This document shows positions 22,737-39,481 of a stretch of DNA of 43,088 bases, in pieces; within the stretch, counting starts at the first letter, position 1; the number at the start of each line of letters is the position of its first letter. The notes under the pieces were generated by a model. The model saw nothing but the letters and a program-made list of their open reading frames with translations. It was not told where the DNA came from and did no database searches. Both the position numbers and the translations under genes were made by a program. The stretch spans positions 1-43,088 of the forward strand of contig DATHEH010000217.1 of the NCBI GenBank assembly GCA_035318685.1, in the 5' to 3' direction. Source of the DNA: Ferruginibacter sp. Its GTDB lineage: Bacteria; Bacteroidota; Bacteroidia; Chitinophagales; Chitinophagaceae.

Positions 22737-22781
22737 CAAAAATATTTGTTATAGAGTCCAAAATTTTACGGGAACCCTTTA
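22737..22781 (-). promoter_or_regulatory. -7 box plus degenerate palindromic operator
   Basis: TATTTTTG (minus, 22737-22744), 21-bp gap, TTACGGGAACCCTTTA at 22766-22781. Confidence 0.6.
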
Positions 22782-22800
22782 AAAGCATGATCCCAGTTGA

Positions 22801-23013
22801 TCAGTGGTAACAATACCCGCATTCCCGTCTATGCCTGGCTTTTGCAGTTGCAATATCAATGGCTTCAATATCTGTAGAGCACCTTCTCAATCCCTGGCAA
22901 TGACTTGATTTGTGGTATACTTTTGACTGTGGGCCGTTGCAGAGATAGACCATGTCGCTGCTGCTGCAGCCTAGCAGGCTTATAACAACTACAAGGACGA
23001 ACTTTTGCATCAT
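22801..23013 (-). CDS. Small Cys/His-rich lipoprotein
   Basis: Lipobox LLGC; 'VYLC...VYH...C..L..C...CGYC'. Confidence 0.75.
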   Translation of the reverse strand: MMQKFVLVVVISLLGCSSSDMVYLCNGPQSKVYHKSSHCQGLRRCSTDIEAIDIATAKARHRRECGYCYH

Positions 23014-23022
23014 TATAGCTTT

Positions 23023-23571
23023 TTAATGTTTCCTCCAGTTCCAAGGGGCAATCGGATTTGGTTCACTCCAAAGCCCGGCCTTATTAGTCCTGGCTACTAT
23101 TTCTAATTGTGCATATGCTGCATCGCTGGAGTATTTTTTAAAGTGCCATGCCAATCCATTTTTAACAAGCCGCTTATTTAGGTTGCTGCCATCGGGTAAA
23201 ATTATTTCGGCGATCAGGCGTTTGTTCCTGTCGTATTTATTATTTTGAACTAGCCTAACATACTTTCCGAAACACAGGTCAGCCGCAAACTGTTTTGCCT
23301 TATTGCCAAAGGGTTGCTTTTTTTCGGGGCAGTCAATATGAGCCAGTCTTATAACCTGTTCTTTACCATCTACAAGTAATACAAAAGTATCTCCGTCCTT
23401 TATGCCAATAACTTTACAGACTGTTTGATCTGTCTTGTTTGTATGGATGCTGCCTGCAAATATTTTAAGACTTGTATCCTTTTTACCATCGTGATGATCG
23501 CAGCTTAGCAACCATGCAAGCAGGAAGGAAAAGAATAGCCGGGTAACAGGTTTTATATAATTATGCTTCAT
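23023..23571 (-). CDS. Thermonuclease (SNase-like) lipoprotein
   Basis: 'DGDT', 'IRLAHIDCPE', 'DRNKRLIA', 'LVKNGLAW', 'GLW..P..PWNWR'; lipobox LLSC. Confidence 0.92.
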   Translation of the reverse strand: MKHNYIKPVTRLFFSFLLAWLLSCDHHDGKKDTSLKIFAGSIHTNKTDQTVCKVIGIKDGDTFVLLVDGKEQVIRLAHIDCPEKKQPFGNKAKQFAADLCFGKYVRLVQNNKYDRNKRLIAEIILPDGSNLNKRLVKNGLAWHFKKYSSDAAYAQLEIVARTNKAGLWSEPNPIAPWNWRKH

Positions 23572-24349
23572 TTTTCTTAGGCCAGTTCAATAGCCAGCTG
23601 GTTATAATAGGTATAAAGAAAATAGCTACTGTCAATACAGAGATGCCGATATCGGCAGCATGGCTGCTTAAAAATTTGCTCGTGGGTGATGCAGGGAAAA
23701 AATGCTCGTACAGTGAAAGTAAAAGTTTTACCCCTAAAACCCCTATTACAATAAAAGCAGCTGTTTCTAAAAAATTGTATTTCTCCATCAACTTCACAAA
23801 CCACTGGGCAATAAAGCGCATTGCTAAGATGCCTATAAAAACGCCCGTACACACCAAGATGATATTAGGCGTAAAAGCTACGGCTGCAAAAACATTGTCG
23901 ATAGAGAATGCCATATCCATCAGCTCTACCAGGCAAACGGTTGCCCAGAAATTTCCAAGCGATCCAACGGTAATCTTGTAAAGCCAGTTGCCCTTTTTGT
24001 CTATAAAATCATCTTCCTTTGTTTCTGTCTGTTTTCCTTTGTACCAATCATACACGAGGTACAAAAGATATAGCCCCCCCAGCGGTTTCAGCCACCATAT
24101 CTTTATCAGAACGGCTGCGAATACCATTGCCAACCCTCTAAAGATGTATGCACCCCATATTCCATATTTTAATGCTTTGCTTCGCTGCTTTTCAGGCAGG
24201 TCCATCACCATGGTGGCCAGTACGGCTGCATTGTCAACAGATAGCAGGCTCTCGATAATGATGAGGTTACCGATGACAGCCATGGATGCACCGGGACGGC
24301 TTACAATATCCTGCCAAAGTACGCTGAATTGATGAAGTATATCGTTCAT
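23561..24349 (-). CDS. terC: TerC-family membrane protein
   Basis: 'ESLLSVDNA', 'GAYIFR', 'ELMDMAFSIDNV'; multiple TM helices. Confidence 0.92.
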   Translation of the reverse strand: MNDILHQFSVLWQDIVSRPGASMAVIGNLIIIESLLSVDNAAVLATMVMDLPEKQRSKALKYGIWGAYIFRGLAMVFAAVLIKIWWLKPLGGLYLLYLVYDWYKGKQTETKEDDFIDKKGNWLYKITVGSLGNFWATVCLVELMDMAFSIDNVFAAVAFTPNIILVCTGVFIGILAMRFIAQWFVKLMEKYNFLETAAFIVIGVLGVKLLLSLYEHFFPASPTSKFLSSHAADIGISVLTVAIFFIPIITSWLLNWPKKNEA

Positions 24350-24362
24350 AGCTTTTGTTTAT

Positions 24363-24560
24363 CTATATCTTTTTTATCACGGCTTTTACAGCCGATAGTA
24401 AAAAAATGATGAGGAATGCTGCCAGCAGCGGTGCAAATACATCCAGCCAGCCTATGCTTTTTAAAAATATTTTCAGGATAAACAACATGCCGGTAAATAC
24501 AATGCCCATATAAACCAGGATAGCCTTAAGGCCCGTACTCCTTTTCTTCTTTTTTCCCAC
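24363..24560 (-). CDS. Small two-TM membrane protein
   Basis: Basic N-terminus, two hydrophobic helices; GTG start; fits the operon spacing. Confidence 0.7.
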   Translation of the reverse strand: MGKKKKRSTGLKAILVYMGIVFTGMLFILKIFLKSIGWLDVFAPLLAAFLIIFLLSAVKAVIKKI

Positions 24561-24577
24561 GATGCCGCGTTAAATGA

Positions 24578-25324
24578 TCATTGAAATACTATTTCTACCC
24601 GCCTGTTCTTTATGCGCCCTTCTTCCGTATCATTGGAACCGATCGGATTGCCGATACCCTTACCGGTGGCGTTGATCCTGGCGGCGGCGATGCCTTTTGA
24701 AACCAGGTAGCTTTTAAAAGCATCGGCCCTTAACTGCGATATTTGTTGATTAACGGCCAAGTTGCCTTCGCTGCTGGCATACCCATGCACATTGATCACC
24801 GAACCGGAATTTTTTTGCAGGAAGGTAATAATGTCTTTTACTAAAGACTGATCCAGGTTATTGATCGCATTCGACCCTTTCGCAAATGTTGCAGGCGTCT
24901 TGTTGTTAAGGCCGGTGGAGGAAATAGTAGTTGGTTGACCGGCATTGTTATCATTGACAGGTTGAGCAGCGATATTAGCGGTTTTTTCTGTAGTACTTGC
25001 AATGTTTGTGTTTTCTGGCTTCATAATAGCAACAGTATCTCCAGTAGTTTGTGTTACTTCAGTTTGATCGCTGGAATTGGTCTTAGCCACGTTTGAATCC
25101 GCTGTTGCTATTGTAGCTGTAGTGTTCTCTGTATGCGGGCCGGAGCTTGACGAGAAATACCAAGCGGCTATGCCTGCAACCAGTAAGCCGGCTATAACAA
25201 AAGGCCAGGCTTTAGACCTTCGTTTTCCCTGTTCAGCGCCGGCTATAGTTGACGGATTGTCTTTTGAAAGATCAAACTTCGATGATGAGTTTGCTCCTTC
25301 GTTTTTATTAAGATTGAATGCCAT
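24578..25324 (-). CDS. Single-TM protein with C-terminal OmpA/MotB peptidoglycan-binding domain
   Basis: 'N..ISQLRA..', 'G.G..NP..SN....GR..NRRVEI'; Thr/Asn-rich linker. Confidence 0.9.
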   Translation of the reverse strand: MAFNLNKNEGANSSSKFDLSKDNPSTIAGAEQGKRRSKAWPFVIAGLLVAGIAAWYFSSSSGPHTENTTATIATADSNVAKTNSSDQTEVTQTTGDTVAIMKPENTNIASTTEKTANIAAQPVNDNNAGQPTTISSTGLNNKTPATFAKGSNAINNLDQSLVKDIITFLQKNSGSVINVHGYASSEGNLAVNQQISQLRADAFKSYLVSKGIAAARINATGKGIGNPIGSNDTEEGRIKNRRVEIVFQ

Positions 25325-25351
25325 GATGATCGGTTTATGGTTTACTAAAAA

Positions 25352-26005
25352 TTAAGTGTACATATCTACGAGTGTCTGTAGGCTGCCGGTATGCCCTCTG
25401 CCCATGGCTTCAAATTCCCAGCTGTTGCCCACACGGAATAGCCTTCCAAACTCGATGGCATCATTATTGTTAGATTCTTTCGCCAGGTCGTACCGGAGTA
25501 TTTCATTCCCTGTTGTTTCATCTGCAATGCGGATATAACAATCGTCTACCATACCGAAATTTTGGTCCAGTGTTCTTCTGTCCTTTTTATTATCATTGGG
25601 GTATTTGCATATCGAAGCGCATATGATGATCTGCTCTATCTTGTCATTCACTTTGGTAAGATCAATGATCATATCCTCGTCATCCTCGCCATCGCTTCGC
25701 TTTCCATCCGGGTCATCAATGGCGCCTAAGATGGAACGGTCATCGGTAACCGGCCGGAACAATCCTTTTTCCATTTTATCTTCCACGCAGTTGCCCATAC
25801 GCACCTGTCCGTAAAAAACAAAATAGCTGTCGGAAGAAATTTTGAAATTGCTGTTGATGGCAAATGCAGATACATCCAGGTCAAAGTCAGGCCCGCCAGG
25901 TTCCTCATTGGGATCCCAGCCCATGCCTATACGGACAGTTGACAAGCCAGGCGCCGCCTTCGATAAGGAGAATCTCTCTCCCTTACTTAAATTAAAACTT
26001 CCCAT
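25352..26005 (-). CDS. terD: TerD-family protein
   Basis: 'GMGWD', 'DLDVSAF', 'FVFYG', 'DDED', 'WEFEAMG'; start set at MGSFNLSKGE. Confidence 0.9.
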   Translation of the reverse strand: MGSFNLSKGERFSLSKAAPGLSTVRIGMGWDPNEEPGGPDFDLDVSAFAINSNFKISSDSYFVFYGQVRMGNCVEDKMEKGLFRPVTDDRSILGAIDDPDGKRSDGEDDEDMIIDLTKVNDKIEQIIICASICKYPNDNKKDRRTLDQNFGMVDDCYIRIADETTGNEILRYDLAKESNNNDAIEFGRLFRVGNSWEFEAMGRGHTGSLQTLVDMYT

Positions 26006-26021
26006 ATTTTTTGTTTTTATT

Positions 26022-26588
26022 TTACTGATACAATTCAATTAATGTGGCTAACCCGCCTGAAAAGGGCTGTCCCAATGCTTCCACATTCCAGGCCCCACCA
26101 TTACGTGATATAGAAGCGATGATCAGGGAGTCCTGTCCGTCAAAGCTTTCTTTTAATTGGTACTCGCATAGAACAGTGTTATCTGCACCGTTGCGTATCT
26201 TGATGAAGGAGTTCTCTACAATCCCGAAATGATGGCCTCGGGTTTCAGATTGGTGGATAGTAATGGCAAAGTATAAGTACTCAACACGGTTGTCCATTTT
26301 AGAAAGATCGATCTTGATGGATTCATCATCTCCATCACCATCGCCATCGCGGCTGTCGCCCGTATGCATTACGGCGCCATCAGGACTTTTGAGGTTATTA
26401 TAAAAAACGAAGTGTTCCTCGGAAACCAGCTTGCCGTTTGCACCCAGTAAAAAAACACTTACGTCACAGTCTACCGGTACGCCGTTGATGGTCGCTTCAT
26501 CCCATCCGAGCCCTGCTACAATATGCTGCATACCGGGTTTTTCTTTTACCAACGAAATGGGTTTCTTTTTTTCTAATGTTATCGCCAT
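26022..26588 (-). CDS. terD: TerD-family protein
   Basis: 'GLGWD', 'FVFYNNLKSPDG.V.HTGD...GDGDGDDE'; start set at MAITLEKK. Confidence 0.93.
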   Translation of the reverse strand: MAITLEKKKPISLVKEKPGMQHIVAGLGWDEATINGVPVDCDVSVFLLGANGKLVSEEHFVFYNNLKSPDGAVMHTGDSRDGDGDGDDESIKIDLSKMDNRVEYLYFAITIHQSETRGHHFGIVENSFIKIRNGADNTVLCEYQLKESFDGQDSLIIASISRNGGAWNVEALGQPFSGGLATLIELYQ

Positions 26589-26622
26589 GATTGAAATTTT
26601 TAATTTTAATTGATCGGTATTA

Positions 26623-28107
26623 CTATTTTTTGGGTGGCAACGGGGGCAGTGCAATTTTTTCTACCTGTACATATTTTTTTCCGCTGGTGCCAATAACTTT
26701 CACTTTTGATCCTGCCGCGATTTCGTTTTTTTCTGTGATGGCTTCGTATATTTTGTTATTGATCTCTACCTTGCCGCTAAGCGATAATTTGGATATTACT
26801 ATTCCCACCCTGCCAACAAGCATGTTCAAATTCACGCAGGAAGGCAGGGGAGGGGAATTAATGATTTCATTGTTTTTTTTGGGTGGCAGCGCCGGAGGCA
26901 ATTTTACTGCCGGCTTTTCTGGCTCTCTTGTTTTTACCGGCGGCAAACCAGGCTTCGCAACCGCAGGAGGATCTTTTAATTCATTCCTGTCGGGTATAAC
27001 AAGAGGATGACCCGGACTAACAGCATGCACTGCATATCCCGAAGCCGCTATCCTGGAAAAGATCAGCTTCGTCGTTTCCAGGTCGTCGGCTGTTCCGATA
27101 CCTTTTACATGCGGGTATTTCTTCAATAGCTTATTGGAAAAATAAACAGTATTGATCTCTTCGCTTGCTAATAATATAGTGGTGGTTTTAACATCAAGAC
27201 CATAGGTTTTAACCAGGTCGTCAAGGGCAGTATAGATCACGCTGTCGGCCGATAAGAACAACAGCCGTTCTTCCAGGTTTCTTTCATTTACCCTGAAGTA
27301 ATAAGGCTTACCGTCTGATAAAGTGGCTTCTCCTTTTATGATAGGCGAGATATTATGCAAGAGGCCTGAAGCATAAGGTAAAATAGAGGCGATCTCCGCC
27401 TCCTTATTTATAGACAAAAAAGGGTTTTGTAAAACGATGTATTCCAGGATCATGTCGGCTAAAATGCTCACCCTTGGGTCAGAGCCCTGTCCTTCTATTT
27501 TTGTGTGGCTGACGAGACCTTCGGAAAGATCTTTGTACAGCTCTACATACAAGTTGTTATCGATACCGGTAAGCTTAATGATCGAAGCTTTATTGGTAAT
27601 GATCCTTTTTTCCTGCAACACTTCAAACAGGCTTTCATTGTATTCCACCCGCTGCACATTGGTATAGCCTGCATCCGTGAACAAGGCTTCCACCAATGCT
27701 TTTTCTTTTTCTTCCATATCCGGTTCAAACAGGAAGCGAAGCGGGAAAAGATTGCGGTAGGTTTCAATAGAATCGCTTTTGTATAGTACGGTATTGATAA
27801 AATGAGATAAGTATTTCTCTATACCATAATAAAAAAGCTGCTTTACCGGTTTCTTATTACCTGAAATGGTAAAATGGAGGCTGGGGTCTTTTACAACTTC
27901 AAAATAATTTCCAAAAGCATTCGGGTCGTTTGAATAGAATCGATCCCTGGCAATACCTCCAAAAAGAAAATCATTGCCGTTTACATAGAAGAATAAAGGA
28001 ATTTCGTTCGACTCTTTAATTACCAGCGGGATATAGGAGTTCCCTTCTGTTTGATACCAGAATGAGACCATCCGCTTTGTAATTTTTACCAGCACACAAA
28101 AATTCAT
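26623..28107 (-). CDS. Hypothetical protein: unknown (possibly degenerate Hsp70/actin-like) N-domain, Pro-rich linker, C-terminal NfeD-like OB fold
   Basis: C-terminal 'VGRVG.V...L..SGKVEI....YEA......I..G.KVKV' resembles NfeD-C; the N-domain assignment is tentative. Confidence 0.65.
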   Translation of the reverse strand: MNFCVLVKITKRMVSFWYQTEGNSYIPLVIKESNEIPLFFYVNGNDFLFGGIARDRFYSNDPNAFGNYFEVVKDPSLHFTISGNKKPVKQLFYYGIEKYLSHFINTVLYKSDSIETYRNLFPLRFLFEPDMEEKEKALVEALFTDAGYTNVQRVEYNESLFEVLQEKRIITNKASIIKLTGIDNNLYVELYKDLSEGLVSHTKIEGQGSDPRVSILADMILEYIVLQNPFLSINKEAEIASILPYASGLLHNISPIIKGEATLSDGKPYYFRVNERNLEERLLFLSADSVIYTALDDLVKTYGLDVKTTTILLASEEINTVYFSNKLLKKYPHVKGIGTADDLETTKLIFSRIAASGYAVHAVSPGHPLVIPDRNELKDPPAVAKPGLPPVKTREPEKPAVKLPPALPPKKNNEIINSPPLPSCVNLNMLVGRVGIVISKLSLSGKVEINNKIYEAITEKNEIAAGSKVKVIGTSGKKYVQVEKIALPPLPPKK

Positions 28108-28113
28108 AACAGC

Positions 28114-31100
28114 TTATACTTTTTGAATTCCTTTCAGTAAATGTTTCTCAAAAAATTTCATGCCTTCCAGGATGATGATGGGAACGATATAGTCGAACTT
28201 TTTCTGTTCTTCTTTTTTCCTTCGCTGGGCTTCTATGAAATCCGGGTCTTCTTTTACATAGCTCTCGATATTCATATCCTGGAAACCGTTCATAAAATCT
28301 GCCTGGCTCATTTTTAACCCGAACATGGAAGAAGACACTTTAAAGAACAGGTCGGCAAAGTCCATAAACCTCGGGCATGGTTGTTGTCCCTGCTGGGGCG
28401 AGCTGATAAAATATTCGCCTATATACTCCAGCATTTCTGCTGTAATAGAATTGCCGTAATCCAGGTATTTCAATTCGCCTGATGGAGCAATAACACAGAA
28501 ATTTTCTTCGCCTAATATTTCTATCGCTTCTTTATTCTTGGGTACCAAAATGGGGGTGATATGTGTGGGGATGGCCAGACCCTTGGATACTTCGTATTTT
28601 ACATCAGCATTATTTTCTTTCTTTTGTGTATTGATGTTGATGATCTGGCTGGGGAAATTAATGGGGGTGATTGTTTGCTTTGCCACCGCTTCGCCACCAA
28701 TGCCCCTGATGAACATTTTTGTGTAATAGTCATTTGCGGCAGAAGGATTAACGGCATTGAACCAGTCAAATATCCTGGCGCCCTTACCGGCAAAAGCAAT
28801 ATTTATTTTTGGCAACAGATTTTTTACTGCCGGTGGCGCATCTTCAGACTTCACTATTTCCGTTCTGAGCTTATAGGCTAACTGGCCGGCATAGTACATG
28901 ATCAAACCGGTAACATATAAATTCACGCTCATCATTTCCTTGCACTCTGCCGCAATCAGGCGATAAAAATCATCAAAATCTGCCGTCTCGAGCCTGTCAA
29001 CCACCTGTTCGAAATAATAAGGCGCCGTGTTCTCATTGAATTTATTCTCACCGGCATTCAATCCTTGTATCTTTATTTTTTTTCGTTCACATACTTTCAA
29101 TAAAACCGACTTGAAGTTTGGAGCGGACCTGGTAGCCTGGGCAACCCGTTGTGCGGCAAAGCGGATAGAGTTCTGCTTGATCATCGCCTTGCCACCGTCC
29201 ATCTGGCATAAGGCAGTAATATCTGTTGTGCTGCCCCCTATATCAAAACAAAGCACCAGTTCACCGGGCCTTACGGAATATCCGGAATTGACTAAATAAT
29301 TGGCCACAGCACAGGCTTCAGTTAAGGATTCATTATTGCTTAAAGGCTTGAAGTCAAAACGCACAGGGGCGGTTTCGGTCGCGATATCAATCACTTTTTT
29401 ATTCTTCGTTGCATTGTCATCGCCCCATCCTGCAGCAGGCGTGTTGGTGCCGCTGTTTCCCCAACCTTTGTCATCATTACCTGAACCCCATGCTGAATCT
29501 GTTGTAGCATCATTGTTTCCCCAACCGGTCTTGGTTTCTGCACTGGCCCAGGAACTACCACCGGCATCGCCAATATCCGCAAGATCAGAAGGAGGGTAAA
29601 TTTCTAAATTAACATTACTCTTGATCGGGCTTATTTCTTTAAGCGAATCCCAGATTCCCCTGTATTCACTTAACAATCCTTTACCCATTGAAGAGGGATA
29701 AGACCATTTTAAAGTATGCGGCTCGTGTCCCTCCACGAACAGCTGGGCGTATATATGCAATAGCAGGGAACTTAAATAAGCTTTCTTGTAACTTTTATCA
29801 ATACGCTGGGTTGACCATTTCATATTGTACACCAGCTCGGCCTTACCTACCCTGTTATAGCCCAGGATATACCTGTTGGCGGTAGCATTTTCAATGGGCA
29901 GGTTCTTTTCAAAACAGGGAAAGCCTCCTTTTACTACCTGGGCAAACAAAGAATCGTTTGAAATATTATCAGTATTCACCACCCGGCGGGAGTCATGGAT
30001 GGTTAAGACCGACTTGATAGAATTGGAGATGATCTCGTCATTCTGGAAAAAGAAGATCTCGTCTTCAATAGCCGGTCTCTCATCATTATTTTTTGCATCA
30101 TTTGAAAGCAATGAGATCCTCCGGTTATTGAACTTCAGGCTTTTGCAAACCTCGTTAGTGCTCCCCGAAAAATAAGCAATAGACGAATTAGTGCTTCCAA
30201 AATCAACACCTAAATAAGCGGGGGCTAAATCAACAACGGGGTTTTTAAGCATATTGGCGGGTAAGTATTTATTATTACCCGTACCATCATACCTGATAAT
30301 ACCGAAGCCACAATCCTTTCCTGCATGCGCAAACCTGATACCTTTAAAAGGCTGGTTGCTTTCATATATCTCGTACTTGTATTTATTGTCGGCCACTGCA
30401 TTGTTCGAGGCGATATGCAGCTCTACTTTTATGTTGCCATATTTTTCCGGGATGATGGCAGCTTTGCCATTATTTGCCAAATACAATGGGGCGTTTTTTT
30501 CATTCAGAATGATCCTGAAAAAATCATCATTCACATTCCCTATAAAAGGCGTGGCCTGGAACTTCGCATCATTATGCGTTATTTCCGAGAACATAAAATA
30601 CCTGTTCCATTGCTTCGAGATAAAATTTGGCCATATCAATATGTCCTGGCCAATGATCGAGTCCCTCGTTACTTTATAAATGATCTGCTTGGTGATCTCA
30701 TTACCAGTATTGGTAAACAGCTTTAATTGCACCATTAATTTTTCTCCATCCTTATCATTAGGATCATAAGTTGCAGAGATCCTCGATTTTACATTAGAAG
30801 TTTCGTCCAGGCCAACCAATGCGGTGAGGTTAGCGCCAAATACATTTAAAGCCAACGGGGTAAGCGGCAAGGTAAAGTAAGCGAAATTATTCGCCTGCCC
30901 TTTGGTGCCAGCTTCCAGTAACAGTAAAGGTTTCGACCTTAAATAGTTCTTTGTTTCCGCTCCTTCCTTCCCAAAATCTATCTGGGCAATTTCGGTCGAT
31001 TCCGGCAGCAACAGGTCTTTAGGGTCGAAAGGAATGCTTCCTTCCATTCCCAGCTCATTCGAGATCATTCCTTCGGAACCATACAATTCGGTTGAGAAAT

Positions 31101-31997: not shown

Positions 31998-33653
31998 TTA
32001 ATTAAAATTGAAGTTTTGAGACACAGTTATTGCATTGTAGATATGCGCCAGGAATTTTTCCTTTGTCGTATTCACCTTTTGTTCGTCTTTGGGCGACGTA
32101 TTAATTAACCTGTCAACAAAGGTTCCATACCTGTCAGCTAACAGACCGCCTTTTGGCCAATGATATTTTTCATCATTAAAAAGAGTCCCCACATCCAGTT
32201 TTTTTAATTCTGACGGGGTATCCGGAAAAGCTTTACTGTCAAACAAAAAAGAACCGGGTGCAACTGTATTCCTGATTTGGTACAACCACCCTGGTGAAAA
32301 CCGTACATTACCATTTTCATTATCAAAATGATAAGCAAACTGTTTAAAATACTCGTTAATCTCATCACATTCCGTATCTGTAATCGTACTGTATTGTGTT
32401 AATTTTTGTTTTTCACATCTTGTAATAAATCCTTTAATTCCGGAATCTCCTGTTGATGCGCCATTAATGGTTAATGAAACATGTGCCAGGGAAAAAAACG
32501 CACCTAACCTATTCGCGAAATTCTCTCCTGCCTTGTTATAATTGCCAACAAAGTCATCAAAAGAAAAATTAAACGTATTCTTCTCAAATTCCACCGCTTT
32601 ATATAAATATTGAGCTATCGCAGTATCAAAACCGTCTTTTCGTGTAAAAAAATCATACGCTGCACAGGCGCATAACAACTCTGTAATATGGCATGGATTT
32701 TTTTGAGTAGCGCCTCCGGTAATAGTTTTATGACCTGATGTTTCCTCATCGATCTTTTTGCTTTCAATGGGCCAGCCAATATGGTATAATATTTTATAGC
32801 TTTTCTGTACAGTGGGGTCGTTCTGATAAAATTGCAAAGCAGCCTGGCTGTTCAGCGGGAAAAAAGAAGAGTCTGCTATAACGCTGTTTTCCTTGGTAGA
32901 TTTCTCTTTATTATCCGGCTTTTTGAAAGTAAAATACTCGGTGAGAAGTGTCGAACCGAATTTAGCCTTTGAAAAGTCGATCGTTTCTTTACCCCCGGAT
33001 CTTGTTTGTATAAAGTCCTGCAGAGCTTTTGGAATAATGGGTATGGATGAAGCGCCGGTGCCACCGAAAATGGAACCGAAAATAAAAACACGGGCGTTTG
33101 CACCCGCAACCTTTATTTTAGAAACAAACGATTCCAATGCTCTTTCCTCGGGCTTAACATCTTTACCACTTGCTATGTTCCTGGCTGCCTCTACAATACC
33201 GTGGTACATCAACAAAGATCCTAAATGTGTCTGAGCCCTGTACCCATGAGCCAGGTTGAATTCCTGTACCGAACTATTATCTAAAAAAAGATCAGATATT
33301 AGTTTATTAGCCTTTTGCACTTCCGGAGAACCAGAAGAAATTTTAGTTATGTTTTTATAGTTTTCCCGGCCCGTACCTGAATAGTTCGTATAATATTTGT
33401 ACAAATTTAGTTTTGCAGAGAAAAAAGTATTTGCATTGGGCGTACCACCTTTAGTATTACCTGAAGATTTTACCTGGTTATACAGTGAGATCAGGTCCTC
33501 GGCTCTTTTCTTATTGCCATTGGTGGAGTCGGTATCTAACGTTAATACATCAATTTCCTGGTTATCGAACATCCCTATGGCGCATAAATGCGTAAAGGAT
33601 TCCAAACAACGCATACCGGTTCCGCCGATCGCTATTACAAATAGTTTATCCAT
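31998..33653 (-). CDS. Tubulin/FtsZ-superfamily GTPase-like protein (Tubulin_2-like)
   Basis: N-terminal 'VIAIGGTG', 'LDTD', T4-like signature 'GSIFGGTGAS'. Confidence 0.82.
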   Translation of the reverse strand: MDKLFVIAIGGTGMRCLESFTHLCAIGMFDNQEIDVLTLDTDSTNGNKKRAEDLISLYNQVKSSGNTKGGTPNANTFFSAKLNLYKYYTNYSGTGRENYKNITKISSGSPEVQKANKLISDLFLDNSSVQEFNLAHGYRAQTHLGSLLMYHGIVEAARNIASGKDVKPEERALESFVSKIKVAGANARVFIFGSIFGGTGASSIPIIPKALQDFIQTRSGGKETIDFSKAKFGSTLLTEYFTFKKPDNKEKSTKENSVIADSSFFPLNSQAALQFYQNDPTVQKSYKILYHIGWPIESKKIDEETSGHKTITGGATQKNPCHITELLCACAAYDFFTRKDGFDTAIAQYLYKAVEFEKNTFNFSFDDFVGNYNKAGENFANRLGAFFSLAHVSLTINGASTGDSGIKGFITRCEKQKLTQYSTITDTECDEINEYFKQFAYHFDNENGNVRFSPGWLYQIRNTVAPGSFLFDSKAFPDTPSELKKLDVGTLFNDEKYHWPKGGLLADRYGTFVDRLINTSPKDEQKVNTTKEKFLAHIYNAITVSQNFNFN

Positions 33654-33670
33654 AAAATGATTTTTTTAGA

Positions 33671-34006
33671 TCAGAACCAATGGCCAAGCTTGCCATTCCT
33701 GAAAATTTTGCTCAGTATAAACCCAATGATGATATATAAAACAAATCCAACTCCCGTTGCAACGGGCAGCACTTTCATATAGTCATCATACACCATTTGA
33801 TCATTATCGGGATTTGGTGCTAATACAAACCTGCCCAGCACAAAAAAAACAATCGGGTTAAGTACGGCTAATATCCAAAACCAGGCTTTTCTTTTCCCGG
33901 GATCATTTGGGTTGGAACCTCCCTTATATTGTATTGCCATTGAAATTAATGCAGCGATCAGGATCATTGCACCTGCTACTATAGCGGCGATAATGTAAGA
34001 TGTCAT
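33671..34006 (-). CDS. Small three-TM membrane protein
   Basis: Three hydrophobic helices; tight operon spacing. Confidence 0.8.
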   Translation of the reverse strand: MTSYIIAAIVAGAMILIAALISMAIQYKGGSNPNDPGKRKAWFWILAVLNPIVFFVLGRFVLAPNPDNDQMVYDDYMKVLPVATGVGFVLYIIIGFILSKIFRNGKLGHWF

Positions 34007-34040
34007 AGTATTAATTTTGGTTGATGCTTATTTAATTGGT

Positions 34041-35591
34041 TTAGGGTTTTTTAGTGTTCGCAAATTTTATGTAGTAGGAGTAAATGATCTTTCCTTTAGG
34101 GTTTATTGAAGGTTCTAGTAAAGTATTCCGAATAGCTTCTGAGAGTGATGTATTGGGTTTATCTTTTATTGTGGAAGAAGTCCATTGAAAATCTGACAAT
34201 TTGGGATTTGAATCATTAAAAATTGCATCCCCTATAACATAATCAATTCTAATGAGTGCATTTTCCTTTTTTACATTTTTGATTTTATAATTAGGGTGGA
34301 AGATTGTTTCTAATCCTATTTTAGCTGGATCATTTTTTAAATGACTACTAAATATTTCTTTGTTATAATCAAATACTTCTGCCCATTCATATTTACTCAA
34401 ATCAATAGATTTATAAATCCAAGCTTTTTTTATATCTGTAGTGTTTGTTAGATAACATTTCTCAATAATGGCGTCTTTTTTCGATTTCTCATCCCATACA
34501 AAATCTTTTTTTGAATCTCTAATTAGAACAGGAACATGGTTTTTTGCTTCAGAGCAGCGAGCATAATTTTCATAATCATCTGATACATCATAAACTTTAA
34601 CTGATACATTGCTTAATTTATATGCAGATTGATCAGATGCATTCAATAGCAAACCATTTAGAAAAAGACCAGCTTCTTTTTTTATTGAATTCTCAACGTA
34701 CTTTTCTAAATCTTTATTCCAAGGCTTATTTATACCGATTACCTCAAATGGTAATTTCTTGTCGACAGAAGAATTTAAATTATAATTTACCCATTTAGCA
34801 AATGTTTGATTTGAAATTCCAGTTTTATCTTTACCTCCATAATCGTTTGAAATATTATATGGACTATTATTTAATTCAAATACTTCCGTTTCAATACGCC
34901 CTTTAAAAGCATCTTTGATCTGTGAAACAAAACTATTTGGAGTAGGTTTTCCATGAGTAAACACCGTGAAGTAAAGGTGTTTGTCTGTTTCAATTTGAGG
35001 CTTCCTACTTTTATTTATTTCATGAAAGGAGGTATAAAAAAAAGTTATTGAATTTCCACCCCTAAGCCAATTAATAAAATATTTCTTAGGATAATCTAAA
35101 AATTGTTCAACCCTGTCATTGGTATATTCTTCAAAGTCAGTAATCAATAAAGCATCATTTGAATCCGAGGTGATTCTTATTAATGCCTTTTCAATTGGAG
35201 CCATAATATCTTTATATTCTTTTGGATCATTAATCTTATTAAAAAGCTCTGTACTCTTATATTCTAGTTTTTTAATTGTATCATTTCCCAAAGAATACCA
35301 ATCTATTTCGTCGCTTATAAGCTTATGAGCAATGGCCTGGATTATTTGACTGTTTTTTGAATTGCTTTTATATGCTTGTATCAAGCCGTCTGAAAAATCT
35401 ATATATACAGCAGGGTTACCGCTTTTTGGATTAACTGCTTCTCCCAATGAAGCATTATAATACCCTTCGATATTTTTATCGATCTCATTCAACGGTTTGA
35501 ACCCAGCCCATGGACCTGCATCCTTATCTCCACTACAGCCGGTCAATAAATAAACTGATGAAAGCAAAAGGAGAATTCTTTTTATATTCAT
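34041..35591 (-). CDS. Lipoprotein with putative vWA-like domain
   Basis: Lipobox LTGC; MIDAS-like 'VYIDFSDG' and 'ALLITDFE'. Confidence 0.7.
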   Translation of the reverse strand: MNIKRILLLLSSVYLLTGCSGDKDAGPWAGFKPLNEIDKNIEGYYNASLGEAVNPKSGNPAVYIDFSDGLIQAYKSNSKNSQIIQAIAHKLISDEIDWYSLGNDTIKKLEYKSTELFNKINDPKEYKDIMAPIEKALIRITSDSNDALLITDFEEYTNDRVEQFLDYPKKYFINWLRGGNSITFFYTSFHEINKSRKPQIETDKHLYFTVFTHGKPTPNSFVSQIKDAFKGRIETEVFELNNSPYNISNDYGGKDKTGISNQTFAKWVNYNLNSSVDKKLPFEVIGINKPWNKDLEKYVENSIKKEAGLFLNGLLLNASDQSAYKLSNVSVKVYDVSDDYENYARCSEAKNHVPVLIRDSKKDFVWDEKSKKDAIIEKCYLTNTTDIKKAWIYKSIDLSKYEWAEVFDYNKEIFSSHLKNDPAKIGLETIFHPNYKIKNVKKENALIRIDYVIGDAIFNDSNPKLSDFQWTSSTIKDKPNTSLSEAIRNTLLEPSINPKGKIIYSYYIKFANTKKP

Positions 35592-35631
35592 AACTGGTTA
35601 GTTTATTTTATAATTGTTGTGATCGTGATCC

Positions 35632-36435
35632 TTATAATTGTTCATCTTTTATGAGCTCAGTTTTCAGTTCGTGAAGCACAGAATCGCTGGGTAAGTGCGG
35701 ATCCATCACTACCACCTTTTTCTCCTTCTTCGTCCTCACCCTCGCCATCTTAAACGGCTTAATCAACGCCGGGTCCATCTCTTCAGCTACTATCTTGTGC
35801 AGGGCAGCCAGGATCATCTCATCTTCACATTTTTCATTGTACCTGGTCTTGATCATCTTTTTGATACATTTCAGCACTGCATCAGAACATAAAATGCCTG
35901 CGATATTATATGGATCAGTTGCCTCACATTTATTCCAGAGCGGCTTAAAGACGTGTTTAACTACACTTTCTTTATGAAGATGTTGTAAGTGGCCGGCAGC
36001 ATTCCTCAGGCTGGCAGCATCACCGAGGTCCAGGGAAAATATCAGGTGCGATGATATCGGTTGCTCAAATATGATCTTATAGAATTCGAAGTTCCTTCCA
36101 TTCGTAAGCAAGGCATATTCGATGCCTTCATTGGCTCCGTAATTGACCGTTTGCCGTAAATGCCTTTCTGATAGTTGAAAGGAGAGGGCTTTTACTTCCA
36201 CCAGGAAATGCCGTTTTATATTTACCTGGATCACATAATCGGCATAAGTACCTTTAATCATGTACTCCGTCTTTATTTCTTCCAGCTGCTTATACCCGAG
36301 GACATCCGAAAGAAACCGGTTGATCATGATCCTGGTGCCCGACTCGTCCAACTCTTTTATATTCCCATCTAAAAAATCCTTGCGATAGGCTTTTAAGGAA
36401 TTAAGTAACTTTTGTTGCTTTAACGCAGTGAGCAT
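35632..36435 (-). CDS. Stand-alone HsdR_N-like PD-(D/E)XK nuclease-domain protein
   Basis: 'E..TR', 'ADYVI..LVEVK', 'Q..NY', 'LTNG'; no helicase domain. Confidence 0.82.
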   Translation of the reverse strand: MLTALKQQKLLNSLKAYRKDFLDGNIKELDESGTRIMINRFLSDVLGYKQLEEIKTEYMIKGTYADYVIQVNIKRHFLVEVKALSFQLSERHLRQTVNYGANEGIEYALLTNGRNFEFYKIIFEQPISSHLIFSLDLGDAASLRNAAGHLQHLHKESVVKHVFKPLWNKCEATDPYNIAGILCSDAVLKCIKKMIKTRYNEKCEDEMILAALHKIVAEEMDPALIKPFKMARVRTKKEKKVVVMDPHLPSDSVLHELKTELIKDEQL

Positions 36436-36471
36436 GGTAGTTAGTTTGGAATGATAAATGCGGCTTCATTT

Positions 36472-36516
36472 CAAAGCTAACAGGTGGGATCGTCTTTTTA
36501 TTACGGTAAACCGTAA
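36472..36516 (-). promoter_or_regulatory. Operon promoter: -7 box plus perfect palindromic operator
   Basis: TAGCTTTG (minus, 36472-36479), 21-bp gap, TTACGGT-AA-ACCGTAA at 36501-36516. Confidence 0.75.
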
Positions 36517-36606
36517 AGCCCCGTTTTTAAACGAAACTTACCTGTTCATTTGCCGTAAAATTTTATGGAACGATCAATGTAGATGGTAGCTATTATAGCC
36601 CTTTAC

Positions 36607-37254
36607 TTATAATATTCCTTTTTCTTTACAGAAAAGGACCAACTGCTCATTTTTTAAAAACCCGAATTCATCGCGGATCTTTTTGAGGCTTTTTTCTACC
36701 GTGCTGAGGCTTCGGTTGAGGTGATCGGCTATTTCTTTTTGCTGGTTTCCCTGTGATAATAGGCGGATAATATCGATATCGAAATCCGTGAACTCATATG
36801 CATTGGACTGTTTCACGATCTGGGCCAGCGCCCTGGGATAATATTGCTGGCCTTTTGCCAGGACATCAAATGCCGATTTCAGCTCTTTTACATCGTGTCG
36901 GGCCTTTCGCACAAAGCCGTCAATTTCGTAGTCATCGTACAACGATTTTATTTTCGCGGGTTTGATCTCTGCAGAAAAAACAAGGATCATGATATCTGGC
37001 TGCACCTCACGGGCTGCCCTGATCAGCTGAAATCCGTCTGCAATTTTTTGTGATCTTCCATCATCTTCAAAGTACAGGTCGGTGATCAGTACATCATATG
37101 GCAGTTCAGCCTTCTTAGCCATCTTAATCCTGTTCAACGCATCGTCACAATAAAAAACATAGTCGCTTTGCCTGATGTGCAATTCCTCCATTGTTTTTTG
37201 AATGGAAAGATTGGAGCTTTCCTGGTCTTCGGCTATAATTACTTTATCGATCAT
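36607..37254 (-). CDS. NarL/LuxR-type response regulator
   Basis: Receiver 'IIAED', 'LITDL', 'FVRK'; HTH 'LLSQG..QKEIA..L..S.STVEK.L'. Confidence 0.9.
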   Translation of the reverse strand: MIDKVIIAEDQESSNLSIQKTMEELHIRQSDYVFYCDDALNRIKMAKKAELPYDVLITDLYFEDDGRSQKIADGFQLIRAAREVQPDIMILVFSAEIKPAKIKSLYDDYEIDGFVRKARHDVKELKSAFDVLAKGQQYYPRALAQIVKQSNAYEFTDFDIDIIRLLSQGNQQKEIADHLNRSLSTVEKSLKKIRDEFGFLKNEQLVLFCKEKGIL

Positions 37255-38920
37255 GTTTTACGGGTTCAAGCGGAAAGCAGATCGTGATCGACGCCCCGCC
37301 CTTCTCGCTTTTTCCAAAAATAACTTCTCCGTTCAATGATTTAATACGGTTAACCGTATTCTTCAAGCCATTTCCAAATTCAACGTGGGAAGAGAAGCCT
37401 GTACCATTGTCGCTATAATAAAGGAAGGCCTTATTATCTTTCCGGGCAAACCTTATCACCACACTTTTGGCGTCACTATGTTTTTTCATATTTACCATCA
37501 TCTCACTAAGGATCAATAACAGTTCATTTCTCTGATGCATGGTAACCTGGTCCCAGAATGTTTGCTGGTTCCCCACCACGAACACTTCGGTGCGATCATT
37601 TGTAAAATCGTTCAAGAGGTCATGGATCTGGTTATCGTAATGCGGGCTGTCATCGGTTGAGATCTCTTCGTAAGATATATTCCGTGATCTTTCATACATC
37701 CCTTCGATCCTTGTCATTAGTGGTTCCCTGTCGATGGCTTTGCCGTGCTCCAGTTCATTCATAATCCTGTACAACCCGTTTGCTACAACATCGTGCACTT
37801 TTTGAGAGGTCTTAAGCTTAGCGTCCCTTATCTCATTTTCAGCATCCTGCTTGATCTTCCTTCTGCGTTTGGCATACCAGGCCCACAGCAGGATAATGAT
37901 CCCGATGGCAAGTAAAGCCACGCCATAGATCAATACCCGTTGCTTTGTAATATGTTCCTGTAATGCAAGGTTGTCGGCCTTGCTTTTCTGAGCATCGTAT
38001 CTTATGAGTGCGAACCGGTTCACCGTTGTATCCCTTGATAACTGAAGACTGTCGTCAAGTCTTTTGTATTCCTCGTACCAATACGTTTTTAAAGAGGAAG
38101 CGCTGTTCAACCTGATCAGTTTATCGATGGCTTCGAGAATATCACTAGGGCTTTGGTTCTCTATCGCTTTTTCCCGCATTTTTTGTGCATACCATAATGC
38201 TGAATCAGGATTTTCTTTTGCATAATAGTCGGACAGATGAGCATAGCTGGCGTTCAATCCCAAATTATTATTACTGTCGGTCCTTATTTTTAATGCTTCC
38301 CAGAATTCTGGCAAAGCAGGATAGCCGGGATTCTGGAGCCATTTTGTTTTGGCCCTGTTATCGATTATCCTGGCAACAAGCTGTTTGTCGGCTGGCTTCA
38401 AAGCGAATGTTGAATCATAAACAGCAATGGCATCATTATAGCTTCCCTTCTTTTGAAATGCTGTCGCCTTACTATTCATTATTTCAAGCAGGTAACCTGA
38501 CCCTGTAAAAGCAGGTATCGCGTTATTATAAAAATTGATGGCCTCATCGTACAGCTTTAAGTCCAGGCTCACATTCCCTAATATGCTGTATGTATATCCA
38601 ATATCCTCGCGATGCTTTTCATTGAGCGGGTCCAGGGTACGAATAGCGCCGGCAAGGCTTTCCTGGGCACCATACAGGTCACCAATATTCCACTGCATTT
38701 CGCCCATATACCGGTATGCTTTGCCTTTTTTAAGGGTATCATCCGGGTTATTAATATAGCGGTTGAACATCAGGAAGGCAGAATCCAACTGTCCATAATA
38801 CATCAGTCTATAGCCACGCTCATAATCCGTGTATTTGCTTTTACTGCTTTGCGACCTGGTGCTTAAGCTCAAAAGCACAATAAAACATGCTGTTAAGAAT
38901 AAGTGATTTGATGATTTCAA
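37244..38920 (-). CDS. TPR-containing membrane sensor histidine kinase (HisKA_3/NarX-like)
   Basis: TTG start; signal peptide; extracytoplasmic TPR-like helices; one TM; 'KVHDVVAN', 'EMMVNMKKHS', 'DNGTG', 'GNGLKN'. Confidence 0.9.
   Translation of the reverse strand: MKSSNHLFLTACFIVLLSLSTRSQSSKSKYTDYERGYRLMYYGQLDSAFLMFNRYINNPDDTLKKGKAYRYMGEMQWNIGDLYGAQESLAGAIRTLDPLNEKHREDIGYTYSILGNVSLDLKLYDEAINFYNNAIPAFTGSGYLLEIMNSKATAFQKKGSYNDAIAVYDSTFALKPADKQLVARIIDNRAKTKWLQNPGYPALPEFWEALKIRTDSNNNLGLNASYAHLSDYYAKENPDSALWYAQKMREKAIENQSPSDILEAIDKLIRLNSASSLKTYWYEEYKRLDDSLQLSRDTTVNRFALIRYDAQKSKADNLALQEHITKQRVLIYGVALLAIGIIILLWAWYAKRRRKIKQDAENEIRDAKLKTSQKVHDVVANGLYRIMNELEHGKAIDREPLMTRIEGMYERSRNISYEEISTDDSPHYDNQIHDLLNDFTNDRTEVFVVGNQQTFWDQVTMHQRNELLLILSEMMVNMKKHSDAKSVVIRFARKDNKAFLYYSDNGTGFSSHVEFGNGLKNTVNRIKSLNGEVIFGKSEKGGASITICFPLEPVKHDR
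37315..37360 (-). promoter_or_regulatory. Internal promoter/operator inside the kinase CDS, upstream of the regulator gene
   Basis: TATTTTTG (minus, 37315-37322), 21-bp gap, perfect 18-bp palindrome AATACGGTTAACCGTATT (37343-37360; aligned 16-mer starts at 37344). Confidence 0.7.
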
Positions 38921-38942
38921 GAAATCCGGTTTTTCTAAATAT

Positions 38943-38974
38943 AAAAAAAAGGCAGGGATTATTCTGCCTTTTTT
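38943..38974 (-). terminator. Intrinsic terminator (potentially bidirectional) between the peptide and kinase genes
   Basis: A8-GGCAG-n8-CTGCC-T6, 9 bp after the peptide stop codon. Confidence 0.8.
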
Positions 38975-38983
38975 ACAATTGAA

Positions 38984-39163
38984 TTAACCCGCGGGTGGTG
39001 GCGGAGGTGGCGGAGGTTTGGGCGTACCCCCGGTTTCGCCGCCGGTGTCTGAGTCAGGAGTAGGGGTAGTTGTATGTATCAGGGTACAGCTACCATGATT
39101 GTTGGTTGTATGGCCTGGGTTTGGGCAAAAGAATGACGCAAACCAGATAATGATGCTTATCAT
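38984..39163 (-). CDS. Unannotated 59-aa exported-type Pro-rich peptide (candidate signal precursor)
   Basis: Translated by hand: MISIIIWFASFFCPNPGHTTNNHGSCTLIHTTTPTPDSDTGGETGGTPKPPPPPPPPAG*. AT-rich leader, own -7 box and terminator; shorter than the ORF-track cutoff. Confidence 0.8.
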   Translation of the reverse strand: MISIIIWFASFFCPNPGHTTNNHGSCTLIHTTTPTPDSDTGGETGGTPKPPPPPPPPAG

Positions 39164-39366
39164 TGTTTGATTATTTAAATTGTTAGAAAAATTGCCCGTG
39201 CCGGGTAGCGAACCTGGCCGAGACTGGTTTGTAAGAAGCGCTTCTTACCTTGGGAAGGAAGAGCGTTGATCGCAGTTTGGTCAGCAACTTCCCATGCTGA
39301 CTAACCTCGCTGCGATCTTTGCTCTCAGCAGATCTGTTGGTTTGATTTTGACTTACCAAATGATCA
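39164..39366 (-). other. Putative structured 5' leader (about 200 nt) of the peptide gene
   Basis: -7 box TATGTTTG at 39372-39379 (minus); nested stems 39268-39317, palindrome 39231-39248, hairpin 39200-39218. Confidence 0.5.
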
Positions 39367-39436
39367 TGATGCAAACATATGATCGGTTAAGAGCCTGATC
39401 AGCAAACGATTCCGATAATTCCAATCATTCCAATCA

Positions 39437-39481
39437 TTCCGGTTAACCGTAATTTGGTTTTCCAATTATGCAATAATTTTC
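39437..39481 (+). promoter_or_regulatory. Palindromic operator plus -7-like box for the 39536 gene
   Basis: TTCCGGTTAACCGTAA (39437-39452), 21-bp gap, TAATTTTC (39474-39481, one mismatch to TAnnTTTG). Confidence 0.6.

What the first reader, a model, noticed from the sequence alone, without database searches (positions are those of the whole stretch)
22737..39481. One palindrome at an exact 21-bp distance from the -7 box at four promoters
Seen: TTACGGGAACCCTTTA (22766), TTACGGTAAACCGTAA (36501), ATACGGTTAACCGTAT (37344) and TTCCGGTTAACCGTAA (39437). Each is 21 bp from a TAnnTTTG box (three exact, one TAATTTTC) oriented toward the next gene. TAnnTTTG is the Bacteroidota -7 element, and 7-2-7 inverted repeats are typical NarL-family sites (established). 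Inference: the local regulator activates the tubulin/actin/Ter operon, itself and both flanking gene sets.
Basis: partly seen in the sequence, partly recalled or inferred. Interest (0 to 1): 0.82.

Follow-up and report, generated by a model that had tools for sequence, protein, structure and literature searches.

The report
Operator of a peptide-sensing defence regulator
A 16-letter DNA palindrome sits exactly 21 letters before the promoter box at four places in this gene island, and beside the same regulator gene in dozens of related bacteria and in many of their phages; it is likely the switch by which that regulator, probably triggered by a small exported peptide, would turn on stress and anti-phage genes.

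Summary
Observation confirmed: four sites, each exactly 21 bp from a TAnnTTT[G/C] box; shuffles give 0.01. The element is TTACGG-N4-CCGTAA (6-4-6, not 7-2-7), at -49 to -34, and these promoters lack the -33 TTG. It tracks the local regulator: 25 of 30 genomes with the regulator carry it, against 7 of 371 without. The copy inside the kinase gene is under synonymous constraint. It is present in 41 of 55 loci, and its tail co-varies with the sensor domain. The tubulin/actin/Ter operon is one swappable cargo that often carries its own operator. Unlinked copies precede Lamassu, CBASS and other defence genes (7 of 26 vs 8 of 84 controls, p=0.04). Phage contigs carry 76 sites, three in front of cI-like repressors. 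Best reading: a peptide-sensing two-component system that activates a defence/stress regulon as a class II activator. Not found in 10 literature searches. Two earlier AI notes describe the peptide-kinase cassette in marine flavobacteria.

The parts
36501..36516 (-). Operator 2 (perfect core); -7 box at 36472-36479; drives the cargo operon from 36435
   Evidence: an equivalent site within 900 bp downstream of the regulator in 48 of 57 loci
37344..37359 (-). Operator 3, inside the kinase gene; -7 box at 37315-37322; internal promoter for the regulator
   Evidence: present in 53 of 57 loci; the three strongest synonymous-codon biases of the kinase gene fall here
39437..39452 (+). Operator 4; degenerate -7 box at 39474-39481; faces the divergent gene at 39536
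   Evidence: a site with TAnnTT at 21 bp faces this gene in 16 of 39 loci that have it
22766..22781 (-). Operator 1 (weak); -7 box at 22737-22744; drives the 68-aa ORF
36607..37254 (-). Response regulator, REC + LuxR/NarL-type HTH; predicted binder of the operator
   Evidence: Pfam weak hits; NCBIfam RcsB E 1.4e-15; PDB RcsB E 2.5e-13; D59 invariant in 17 of 17
37244..38920 (-). Sensor kinase: N-terminal signal/anchor, periplasmic TPR domain, one TM helix, NarX/DesK-type kinase core
   Evidence: (H376 nearly invariant)
38984..39163 (-). 59-aa exported peptide gene (hydrophobic N-terminus, conserved acidic-Gly motif, Pro-rich tail); candidate ligand of the kinase
   Evidence: 41 of 55 loci; substitutions 1452 at codon position 3 vs 759 and 590; tail tracks the TPR domain; no family match
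38945..38974 (-). Terminator-like hairpin between the peptide gene and the kinase
   Evidence: 28 of 41 loci by a loose rule
39164..39367 (-). About 200-nt structured leader of the peptide gene: a long hairpin whose loop (39288-39293) can pair with 39252-39257 as a pseudoknot; -7-like box at 39372-39379
   Evidence: z -4.3; both pairing segments in 40 of 41 loci; no Rfam match
39410..39445 (.). Array of 9-bp-period direct repeats abutting operator 4
   Evidence: 66 pairs at 9 bp in 11 kb of these zones vs 11 in 405 kb of flanks
39536..40519 (+). Divergent membrane protein: helical N-domain, TM helix, C-domain; possible binder of the 9-bp repeats
   Evidence: 39 of 57 loci; model pLDDT 82; only weak POU/XRE-like matches, Z at most 4.8
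35632..36435 (-). First cargo gene, HSDR_N-like nuclease domain
   Evidence: Pfam HSDR_N_2 E 3e-8
31998..35591 (-). Cargo: 516-aa lipoprotein, 111-aa membrane protein, tubulin-like protein (31998-33653)
   Evidence: Pfam Tubulin and Tubulin_2, both below cut-off; gaps of 40 nt or less
28114..31992 (-). Cargo: 1292-aa protein with actin/Hsp70-type phosphate and adenosine motifs
   Evidence: motifs conserved in alignment A6 (motif identity from recalled knowledge); 813 homologues, one labelled SrfB; no PDB sequence hit
23023..28107 (-). Cargo: NfeD-domain protein, two TerD, OmpA-domain protein, TerC, thermonuclease
   Evidence: Pfam
22224..22715 (-). 68-aa Cys/His-rich ORF (22509-22715) and 81-aa ORF behind operator 1
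   Evidence: no family match

Best explanation
The palindrome TTACGG-N4-CCGTAA is likely the binding site of the neighbouring response regulator, which would activate these promoters from position -41.5 in place of a -33 element, after the TPR kinase is probably switched by the small exported peptide encoded just upstream of it. Shown in sequence: the fixed geometry, the co-occurrence with the regulator, DNA-level selection on the copy inside the kinase gene, the peptide gene, and co-variation of its tail with the sensor domain. Inferred steps: (1) the peptide is exported and its C-terminal tail enters the periplasmic TPR groove; (2) the kinase phosphorylates D59; (3) the dimer binds the 6-4-6 site and contacts sigma-A region 4; (4) an internal promoter amplifies the regulator, a positive feedback loop; (5) outputs are a swappable downstream cargo (here the nuclease-tubulin-actin-Ter operon), the divergent membrane protein, and unlinked genes that are modestly enriched in anti-phage systems. 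My odds by step: regulator binds and activates 0.85; peptide is the kinase ligand 0.7; signal acts between cells 0.45.
For: Geometry: of 79 perfect cores in 57 loci, 70 have TAnnTTTG at 21 bp and 2 at any other distance up to 40. The box is at -12 to -5 (PMC9723704 passage), so the site spans -49 to -34. TTG in the -33 zone: 2 of 68 operator promoters vs 45 of 229 ordinary ones in the own genome, p=0.0005. The promoter-proximal half-site is the better conserved. Binder: pattern in 25 of 30 regulator-positive and 7 of 371 regulator-negative genomes. The unqueried next base is A in 67 of 67 hits in positive genomes and in 1 of 7 in negative ones (read). The match holds inside families: f1 1/21 both; f6 4/7 both, the same genomes. 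With 20-bp spacing the own genome has none. The divergent gene was not found in 3 of 5 complete genomes that have regulator and sites. L080, with a degenerate recognition helix, has no site. Selection: R525 uses CGT in 43 of 48 (background 0.17), N524 AAC 33 of 34, I533 ATT 35 of 35, F535 TTT 47 of 47. Peptide. In 11 close loci, TPR identity follows tail identity after removing kinase core and regulator (partial Mantel r=0.77, p=0.0002), while core and regulator do not follow the tail once TPR is removed. L005 and L006 are 84% identical in the core and 89% in the peptide body but 54% in the first half of the TPR domain, and their tails differ. The kinase model is a TPR superhelix whose best natural matches are peptide-bound LGN TPR domains, on a DesK-like core. 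Targets.
Against: No binding, start-site or expression data. Five of 30 regulator-positive genomes lack the strict pattern; four have variant sites and one has none. Kin are not independent, so all p-values overstate. The peptide tail and the TPR region are adjacent DNA, so one recombination block could move them together without binding. Across the wider tree, peptide class follows lineage, and L070 has a TGG-type peptide with a receptor that falls in the clade holding the GPG-type and peptide-less loci. 14 of 55 kinase loci had no peptide by my filter, and most of them still have operators. Defence enrichment is modest: 7 of 26 vs 8 of 84, p=0.044; at E 1e-30, 4 of 26 vs 3 of 84, p=0.053. 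Most unlinked targets are not defence genes (amidase, SbcCD, lysozyme, lipoproteins). For ComA, an inverted repeat placed next to -35 cut activity more than 10-fold (PMC4797271 passage). The F. psychrophilum start-site table has none of six perfect-core variants and one degenerate match.
Confidence: 0.66

Rival explanations
1. The operator and the activating regulator are as described, but the peptide is a cell-internal envelope sentinel (an RcsF/NlpE-like lipopeptide). It trips the kinase when lipoprotein traffic or the envelope is disturbed, so the output is an envelope-stress regulon and not cell-to-cell signalling.
For: The nearest characterised regulator is RcsB. Many peptides carry a lipobox Cys, and one is annotated lipoprotein. 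Targets include TerB/C/D, OmpA, NfeD and lipoproteins.
Against: Allelic swapping of tail plus sensor among close relatives is expected for pherotypes and not for a housekeeping sentinel. The kinase is a plain NarX/DesK type, not an RcsC hybrid.
Confidence: 0.25
2. The regulator binds the site as a repressor that blocks the -33 region, and signalling lifts the repression.
For: The site abuts the -33 zone. Defence operons are often under repressors (recalled: CapH, BrxR). ComA bound to an inverted repeat near -35 activates poorly.
Against: A repressor needs no exact phase, yet 70 of 72 box distances are 21. The promoters lack their own -33 TTG. The proximal half-site is better conserved.
Confidence: 0.08
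3. Another protein binds the palindrome: the divergent membrane protein at 39536 or an unlinked lineage-wide factor.
For: The divergent gene is in 39 of 57 loci and has a weakly HTH-like N-domain. Phage contigs carry the site without the regulator.
Against: The divergent gene was not found in 3 of 5 site-bearing genomes, and its subtype tracks the separate 9-bp repeat. Site presence matches regulator presence genome by genome within families.
Confidence: 0.05
4. The sites are by-products: protein constraint in the kinase G2 box, terminator-like hairpins, or chance.
For: One site is coding, and the 22766 site is degenerate.
Against: Synonymous positions are fixed. Intergenic copies keep the 21-bp spacing across four families. 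Shuffle and scrambled controls are near zero.
Confidence: 0.01

Closest known systems
ComQXPA of Bacillus subtilis (ComX peptide, ComP kinase, ComA regulator)
   Same: Peptide gene, kinase and NarL-type regulator in one cassette. The operator is a 6-4-6 inverted repeat; the ComA hexamer TTGCGG with a 4-nt spacer (PMC4797271 passage) differs from TTACGG at one base per half. Signal and sensor vary together.
   Different: Gram-negative host. Single-pass kinase with a periplasmic TPR sensor. No ComQ-like modifying enzyme at the locus. The inverted repeat itself sits in the class II position, where ComA uses a direct repeat. ComA was not among the profile hits.
RRNPP peptide receptors (NprR, PlcR, Rap, Rgg)
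   Same: TPR domain next to a small exported peptide gene. NprR is among the TPR sequence hits (E 1.7e-11), though below generic TPR proteins.
   Different: RRNPP receptors are cytoplasmic and need peptide re-import (recalled). Here the TPR domain is outside the inner membrane and fused to a histidine kinase.
FimS-FimR of Porphyromonas gingivalis
   Same: Bacteroidota kinase with a periplasmic TPR sensor and an unknown signal; the authors suggest a polypeptide ligand (PMC11053733 passages).
   Different: Controls fimbriae. The passages read describe no adjacent peptide gene and no such operator. Orthology was not tested.
RcsB / Rcs phosphorelay
   Same: Closest characterised regulator by sequence; envelope-linked input.
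   Different: The kinase is not a hybrid, and no phosphotransfer partner is encoded at the locus. The operator differs from the RcsB box (recalled).
Tubulin/HSP70-containing conflict systems and Ter neighbourhoods (Aravind group)
   Same: The cargo pairs a tubulin-like and an Hsp70/actin-like protein with TerD genes. PMC7159879 passages describe tubulin and HSP70 with GTPase systems.
   Different: No DO-GTPase or GAP1 was identified in this cargo, and the passages read say nothing on regulation. The 2012 Ter paper could not be opened; it is recalled only.

Membership tests
NarL/FixJ-type two-component system | REC domain with phospho-acceptor Asp, plus LuxR-type HTH | tested here: met
   D59, E9, D10, K117 invariant in 17 of 17; RcsB E 1.4e-15
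NarL/FixJ-type two-component system | Cognate NarX-type kinase with intact H, N, D and G boxes | tested here: met
   H376, D377, N477, D504, G506 conserved; NarX, LiaS and UhpB hits; DesK fold
NarL 7-2-7 operator | Two heptamers with a 2-bp spacer | tested here: not met
   68-site logo: six conserved bases per half; the 7th positions are T 48 of 68 and mixed C/T/A
Class II activator promoter | Site centred near -41.5 at fixed phase, with a weak -35/-33 element | tested here: met
Class II activator promoter | Activator-sigma contact and activation in vivo | not testable with these tools
   needs reporters or in vitro transcription
ComQXPA | 6-4-6 ComA-type box | tested here: met
   same form, 2 of 12 bases differ
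ComQXPA | ComQ isoprenyl transferase beside the peptide, and a polytopic ComP sensor | tested here: not met
   no such ORF between the divergent gene and the kinase in the gene maps; the sensor is TPR with one TM helix
ComQXPA | Signal and sensor vary together as pherotypes | tested here: inconclusive
   strong in 11 close loci but confounded by linkage; lineage-bound with one exception on the wide tree
RRNPP | TPR domain plus adjacent exported peptide gene | tested here: met
RRNPP | Cytoplasmic receptor without a kinase | tested here: not met
   signal/anchor, TPR, TM helix, then kinase core
RRNPP | Peptide binds the TPR groove | not tested
Rcs phosphorelay | Hybrid kinase RcsC with RcsD, IgaA and RcsF | tested here: not met
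   the locus kinase is a 558-aa non-hybrid; the genome was not searched for the other parts
FimS-FimR | Orthology to FimS and FimR | not tested
   architecture shared; sequences not compared

The most novel reading that the evidence does not exclude
This is a widespread peptide-pheromone (quorum or alarm) system of Gram-negative Bacteroidota with strain-specific pherotypes. It works as a master switch for a mixed anti-phage arsenal (Lamassu, CBASS, restriction-like nucleases, a tubulin/actin/Ter system), which is recruited simply by acquiring a 45-bp operator-promoter. Temperate phages eavesdrop on it by placing the same operator in front of their repressor and other genes.
Probability: 0.33. 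Interest if true: 0.93.

Novelty: new variant of a known kind. Interest (0 to 1): 0.8.

Why it matters
My searches found no peptide cell-to-cell signalling described in Bacteroidota, and the signal for their TPR kinases (FimS) is unknown. This locus names a candidate ligand, receptor, regulator and a precise operator, so the whole circuit can be tested with a synthetic peptide and a 45-bp reporter. The operator is specific enough to read the regulon from any genome. It links an unstudied tubulin/actin/Ter operon, several known anti-phage systems and prophage genes to one input, which bears on how defence systems are switched on. Even on the modest reading it is a clean class II activator promoter for Bacteroidota sigma-A.

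Tried and rejected
One search used a pattern one base short (20-bp spacing): 26 of 401 genomes, own genome 0; kept only as a spacing control. Sequencing-run search: no RNA holder listed. F. psychrophilum start-site table (PMC9723704 supplement file 3, term searches only): no match to six perfect-core variants and one degenerate match at 21 bp from TAATTTAG, T_0460. I did not check that this strain has the regulator, and the paper's appendix file could not be read. Rfam found nothing at gathering level for the leader. Pseudoknot pair counts: 3 pairs with two-sided changes, 2 of 500 shuffles, but percent paired was not above shuffles, so support is weak. Divergent protein: no significant fold match. 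The 1292-aa protein: no PDB sequence hit and not folded. The kinase-core tree did not finish. RgzAB of F. johnsoniae is a different, GAF-type system. No regulator relative was found in viral contigs with two peptide patterns. The sigma-70 promoter scan was at chance level. Literature searches that did not find this operator or cassette: (open-access library only; listings and abstract starts, with passages read for five papers). For the defence tally, 3 of 26 loci (L125, L132, L135) had no sizeable sense ORF scanned and were counted as misses, an IS gene in L113 was skipped, and the control used 84 of 111 promoters found. The type I RM, AbiH, PDC-S42 and PDC-S05 genes at 10.8-20.4 kb have no operator-promoter and are not counted as direct targets.
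Full report
Observation. The four 16-mers are at 22766, 36501, 37344 and 39437. Each is followed, towards the next gene, by exactly 21 bp and then TATTTTTG, TAGCTTTG, TATTTTTG or TAATTTTC. The composite pattern with up to two mismatches finds exactly these four in the window; 100 shuffles give a mean of 0.01 and never more than one. In the whole 3.53-Mb assembly only 7 places fit at 21 bp, four of them here, against about 1.5 per other distance. In this genome the regulon is therefore essentially local.

The locus. On the minus strand lie a 558-aa kinase (37244-38920), a 215-aa regulator (36607-37254) and a closely spaced run of genes: HSDR_N-like nuclease, lipoprotein, small membrane protein, tubulin-like protein, a 1292-aa protein, NfeD-domain protein, two TerD, OmpA domain, TerC and thermonuclease. 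The tubulin hits are below Pfam's cut-off. The 1292-aa protein keeps the motifs DFGSTN, FDIGGSTTD and AFAGKG across 19 aligned relatives. I read these as actin/Hsp70 motifs from recalled knowledge; no PDB sequence matched. The regulator is REC plus LuxR-type HTH, closest to RcsB, with D59 invariant. The kinase has a periplasmic TPR domain and a NarX/DesK-type core.

The element is conserved and travels with the regulator. I gathered 57 regulator loci: 20, 36, and the window. Named records are Chitinophagaceae and Pedobacter; the others include Flavobacterium- and Chryseobacterium-type genomes. Among 79 perfect TACGG-N4-CCGTA cores, a TAnnTTTG box lies at 21 bp 70 times and at any other distance twice. 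The site inside the kinase is found in 53 of 57 loci, and a site just downstream of the regulator in 48 of 57. In 401 genomes of the phylum the regulator occurs in 30. The strict pattern occurs in 25 of these 30 and in 7 of the other 371, once each. The base after the pattern's core, which was not queried, is A in all 67 hits from regulator-positive genomes and in 1 of the 7 others. Of the five regulator-positive misses, three use a TTATGG variant, one uses TTACAG-N4-CTGTAA (both halves changed), and one, whose recognition helix is degenerate, has no site. A pattern one base shorter gave scattered hits and none in the own genome. Kin are not independent, but the match holds genome by genome within families.

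The coding copy is real. Over 48 non-redundant kinases and 139 conserved columns, the three strongest synonymous biases fall on the operator and the box: R525 CGT 43 of 48 (background 0.17), N524 AAC 33 of 34 and I533 ATT 35 of 35. N521 AAT 45 of 46 and F535 TTT 47 of 47 agree. So selection acts on the DNA, and the regulator has its own internal promoter.

Activation rather than repression. The box occupies -12 to -5 in Flavobacterium start-site data (PMC9723704, passages read), so the operator spans -49 to -34 with its centre at -41.5. That is the class II position. The logo of 68 downstream sites is 6-4-6, not 7-2-7, with a better-conserved promoter-proximal half. Only 2 of 68 have TTG in the -33 zone, against 45 of 229 ordinary promoters of the own genome (the two sets come from different genomes). 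The site differs from the ComA box of B. subtilis by one base per half (PMC4797271, passages read). That paper also shows that an inverted repeat next to -35 is a poor activator site for ComA, which counts against a simple analogy.

The binder. The rival at hand is the divergent membrane protein (39536-40519; 39 of 57 loci), whose N-domain resembles POU/XRE domains only weakly. It was not found in 3 of 5 complete genomes that have regulator and sites. It seems instead to go with a separate array of 9-bp repeats: 66 pairs at that period in 11 kb, against 11 in 405 kb. The five loci with a different N-domain subtype lack the array.

A 59-codon ORF (38984-39163) precedes the kinase. In 41 of 55 loci with a kinase the same slot holds a 45-81-aa ORF with a hydrophobic or lipoprotein-type N-terminus and an acidic-Gly, Pro-rich tail. 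Substitutions concentrate at third codon positions, databases call these ORFs hypothetical, and no family matches. It has its own -7-like box, a roughly 200-nt structured leader and a terminator before the kinase. In 11 close loci, TPR similarity follows the peptide tail after controlling for kinase core and regulator (r=0.77, p=0.0002), and not the peptide body (r=0.2). This is the pattern of signal-receptor alleles, but tail and sensor are neighbours on the DNA, so linkage alone could contribute. On the wide tree, peptide class follows lineage with one mismatch. Fourteen loci had no peptide by my filter. FimS of P. gingivalis has the same sensor design and an unknown signal (PMC11053733, passages read). 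I noted the peptide idea. At two earlier AI notes from this scan turned out to describe a like cassette in marine flavobacteria. They are not independent evidence, and one prompted the test.

The regulon. Cargo behind the regulator varies. Recurrent members include two HSDR_N nuclease families, a TerB-like protein, DUF4236, an exo/endonuclease-phosphatase and small Cys-rich proteins. The tubulin operon follows the regulator in only 2 of 57 loci. Of 25 tubulin-operon loci examined, 9 have an operator-promoter upstream, 8 have none and 8 are too short to tell. In G258 and G398 the operon lies about 20 kb from the regulator and has its own perfect operator directly in front. Three of the genomes without an operator also had no regulator match (no positive control in that call). 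Among 26 unlinked operator-promoters, the first genes include a complete Lamassu system, a CBASS cyclase, PDC-S06, NsnA/GmrSD and SngA matches. That is 7 of 26 with a PADLOC hit at E 1e-12, against 8 of 84 control promoters from the same genomes, p=0.044; at E 1e-30 it is 4 of 26 against 3 of 84, p=0.053. The enrichment is modest, and many targets are unrelated to defence.

Phages. In viral contigs the exact pattern occurs in 74 stretches at 21 bp, 10 at 20 bp and 11 at 22 bp; a scrambled palindrome gives 5. The 76 sites fall in 42 independent contexts and also lack the -33 TTG (3 of 64). No regulator relative was found there. Three sites are single copies pointing at cI-like repressor genes; others precede a head protease, a terminase, an O-antigen acetylase or small unknown genes. 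Use of the host regulator by prophages is an inference; a phage-encoded binder is not excluded.

Verdict. The larger finding is an operator-defined regulon of a widespread Bacteroidota cassette: peptide, TPR kinase and NarL-type regulator. It works like ComQXPA with an RRNPP-like sensor, but it is a member of neither family. Ten searches of the open-access library did not find it. Binding, start sites, ligand and physiological role remain untested.

Noticed in passing
window 39164-39367 (-); alignment A5: Conserved leader RNA before the peptide gene: a long variable hairpin whose loop segment pairs with a segment just 3' of the stem (pseudoknot-like), present in 40 of 41 loci, with no Rfam match. 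A candidate new cis-regulatory RNA.
   Followed up: partly
window 39410-39445 and 39536-40519: 9-bp-period direct-repeat array next to an uncharacterised membrane protein with a helical, weakly XRE/POU-like N-domain. The array is absent where the N-domain subtype differs, so this may be a second, membrane-tethered regulator of the peptide promoter.
   Followed up: partly
L166, L179, L213 (viral contigs): Single operator-promoters pointing at cI-like repressor genes; in L179 and L213 a small gene diverges directly behind the site.
   Followed up: partly
L175, L185, L196, L215, L221, L222 (viral contigs): Operator-promoters in front of a head maturation protease or a terminase small subunit gene.
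   Followed up: partly
window 9522-22101: Defence island without the operator: Fic-like protein (read from sequence), type I RM with AbiH, PDC-S42, PDC-S05/RhuM and GxxExxY genes inserted, and RmuC.
   Followed up: partly
L085 (G162), just downstream of the regulator: A distant regulator (27% identity) has the same half-sites with a 5-bp centre, also 21 bp from a TAnnTTTG box. Possibly a sister family with a 6-5-6 operator.
   Followed up: no
L128 and L130: A 43-aa basic, Pro/Lys-rich ORF lies directly behind unlinked operator-promoters in two genomes; no PADLOC match.
   Followed up: no
L073, L076, L078: Paralogous loci with two or three TPR kinases in tandem before the regulator and no peptide or divergent gene; they may listen to peptides of other strains.
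   Followed up: no
window about 2940-3270: Run of short tandem repeats downstream of the first outer-membrane gene, visible as repetitive ORFs in several frames.
   Followed up: no
alignment A3: Most kinase relatives have an N-terminal Ser-Cys lipobox-like signal before the TPR domain; the window's kinase lacks the Cys.
   Followed up: no
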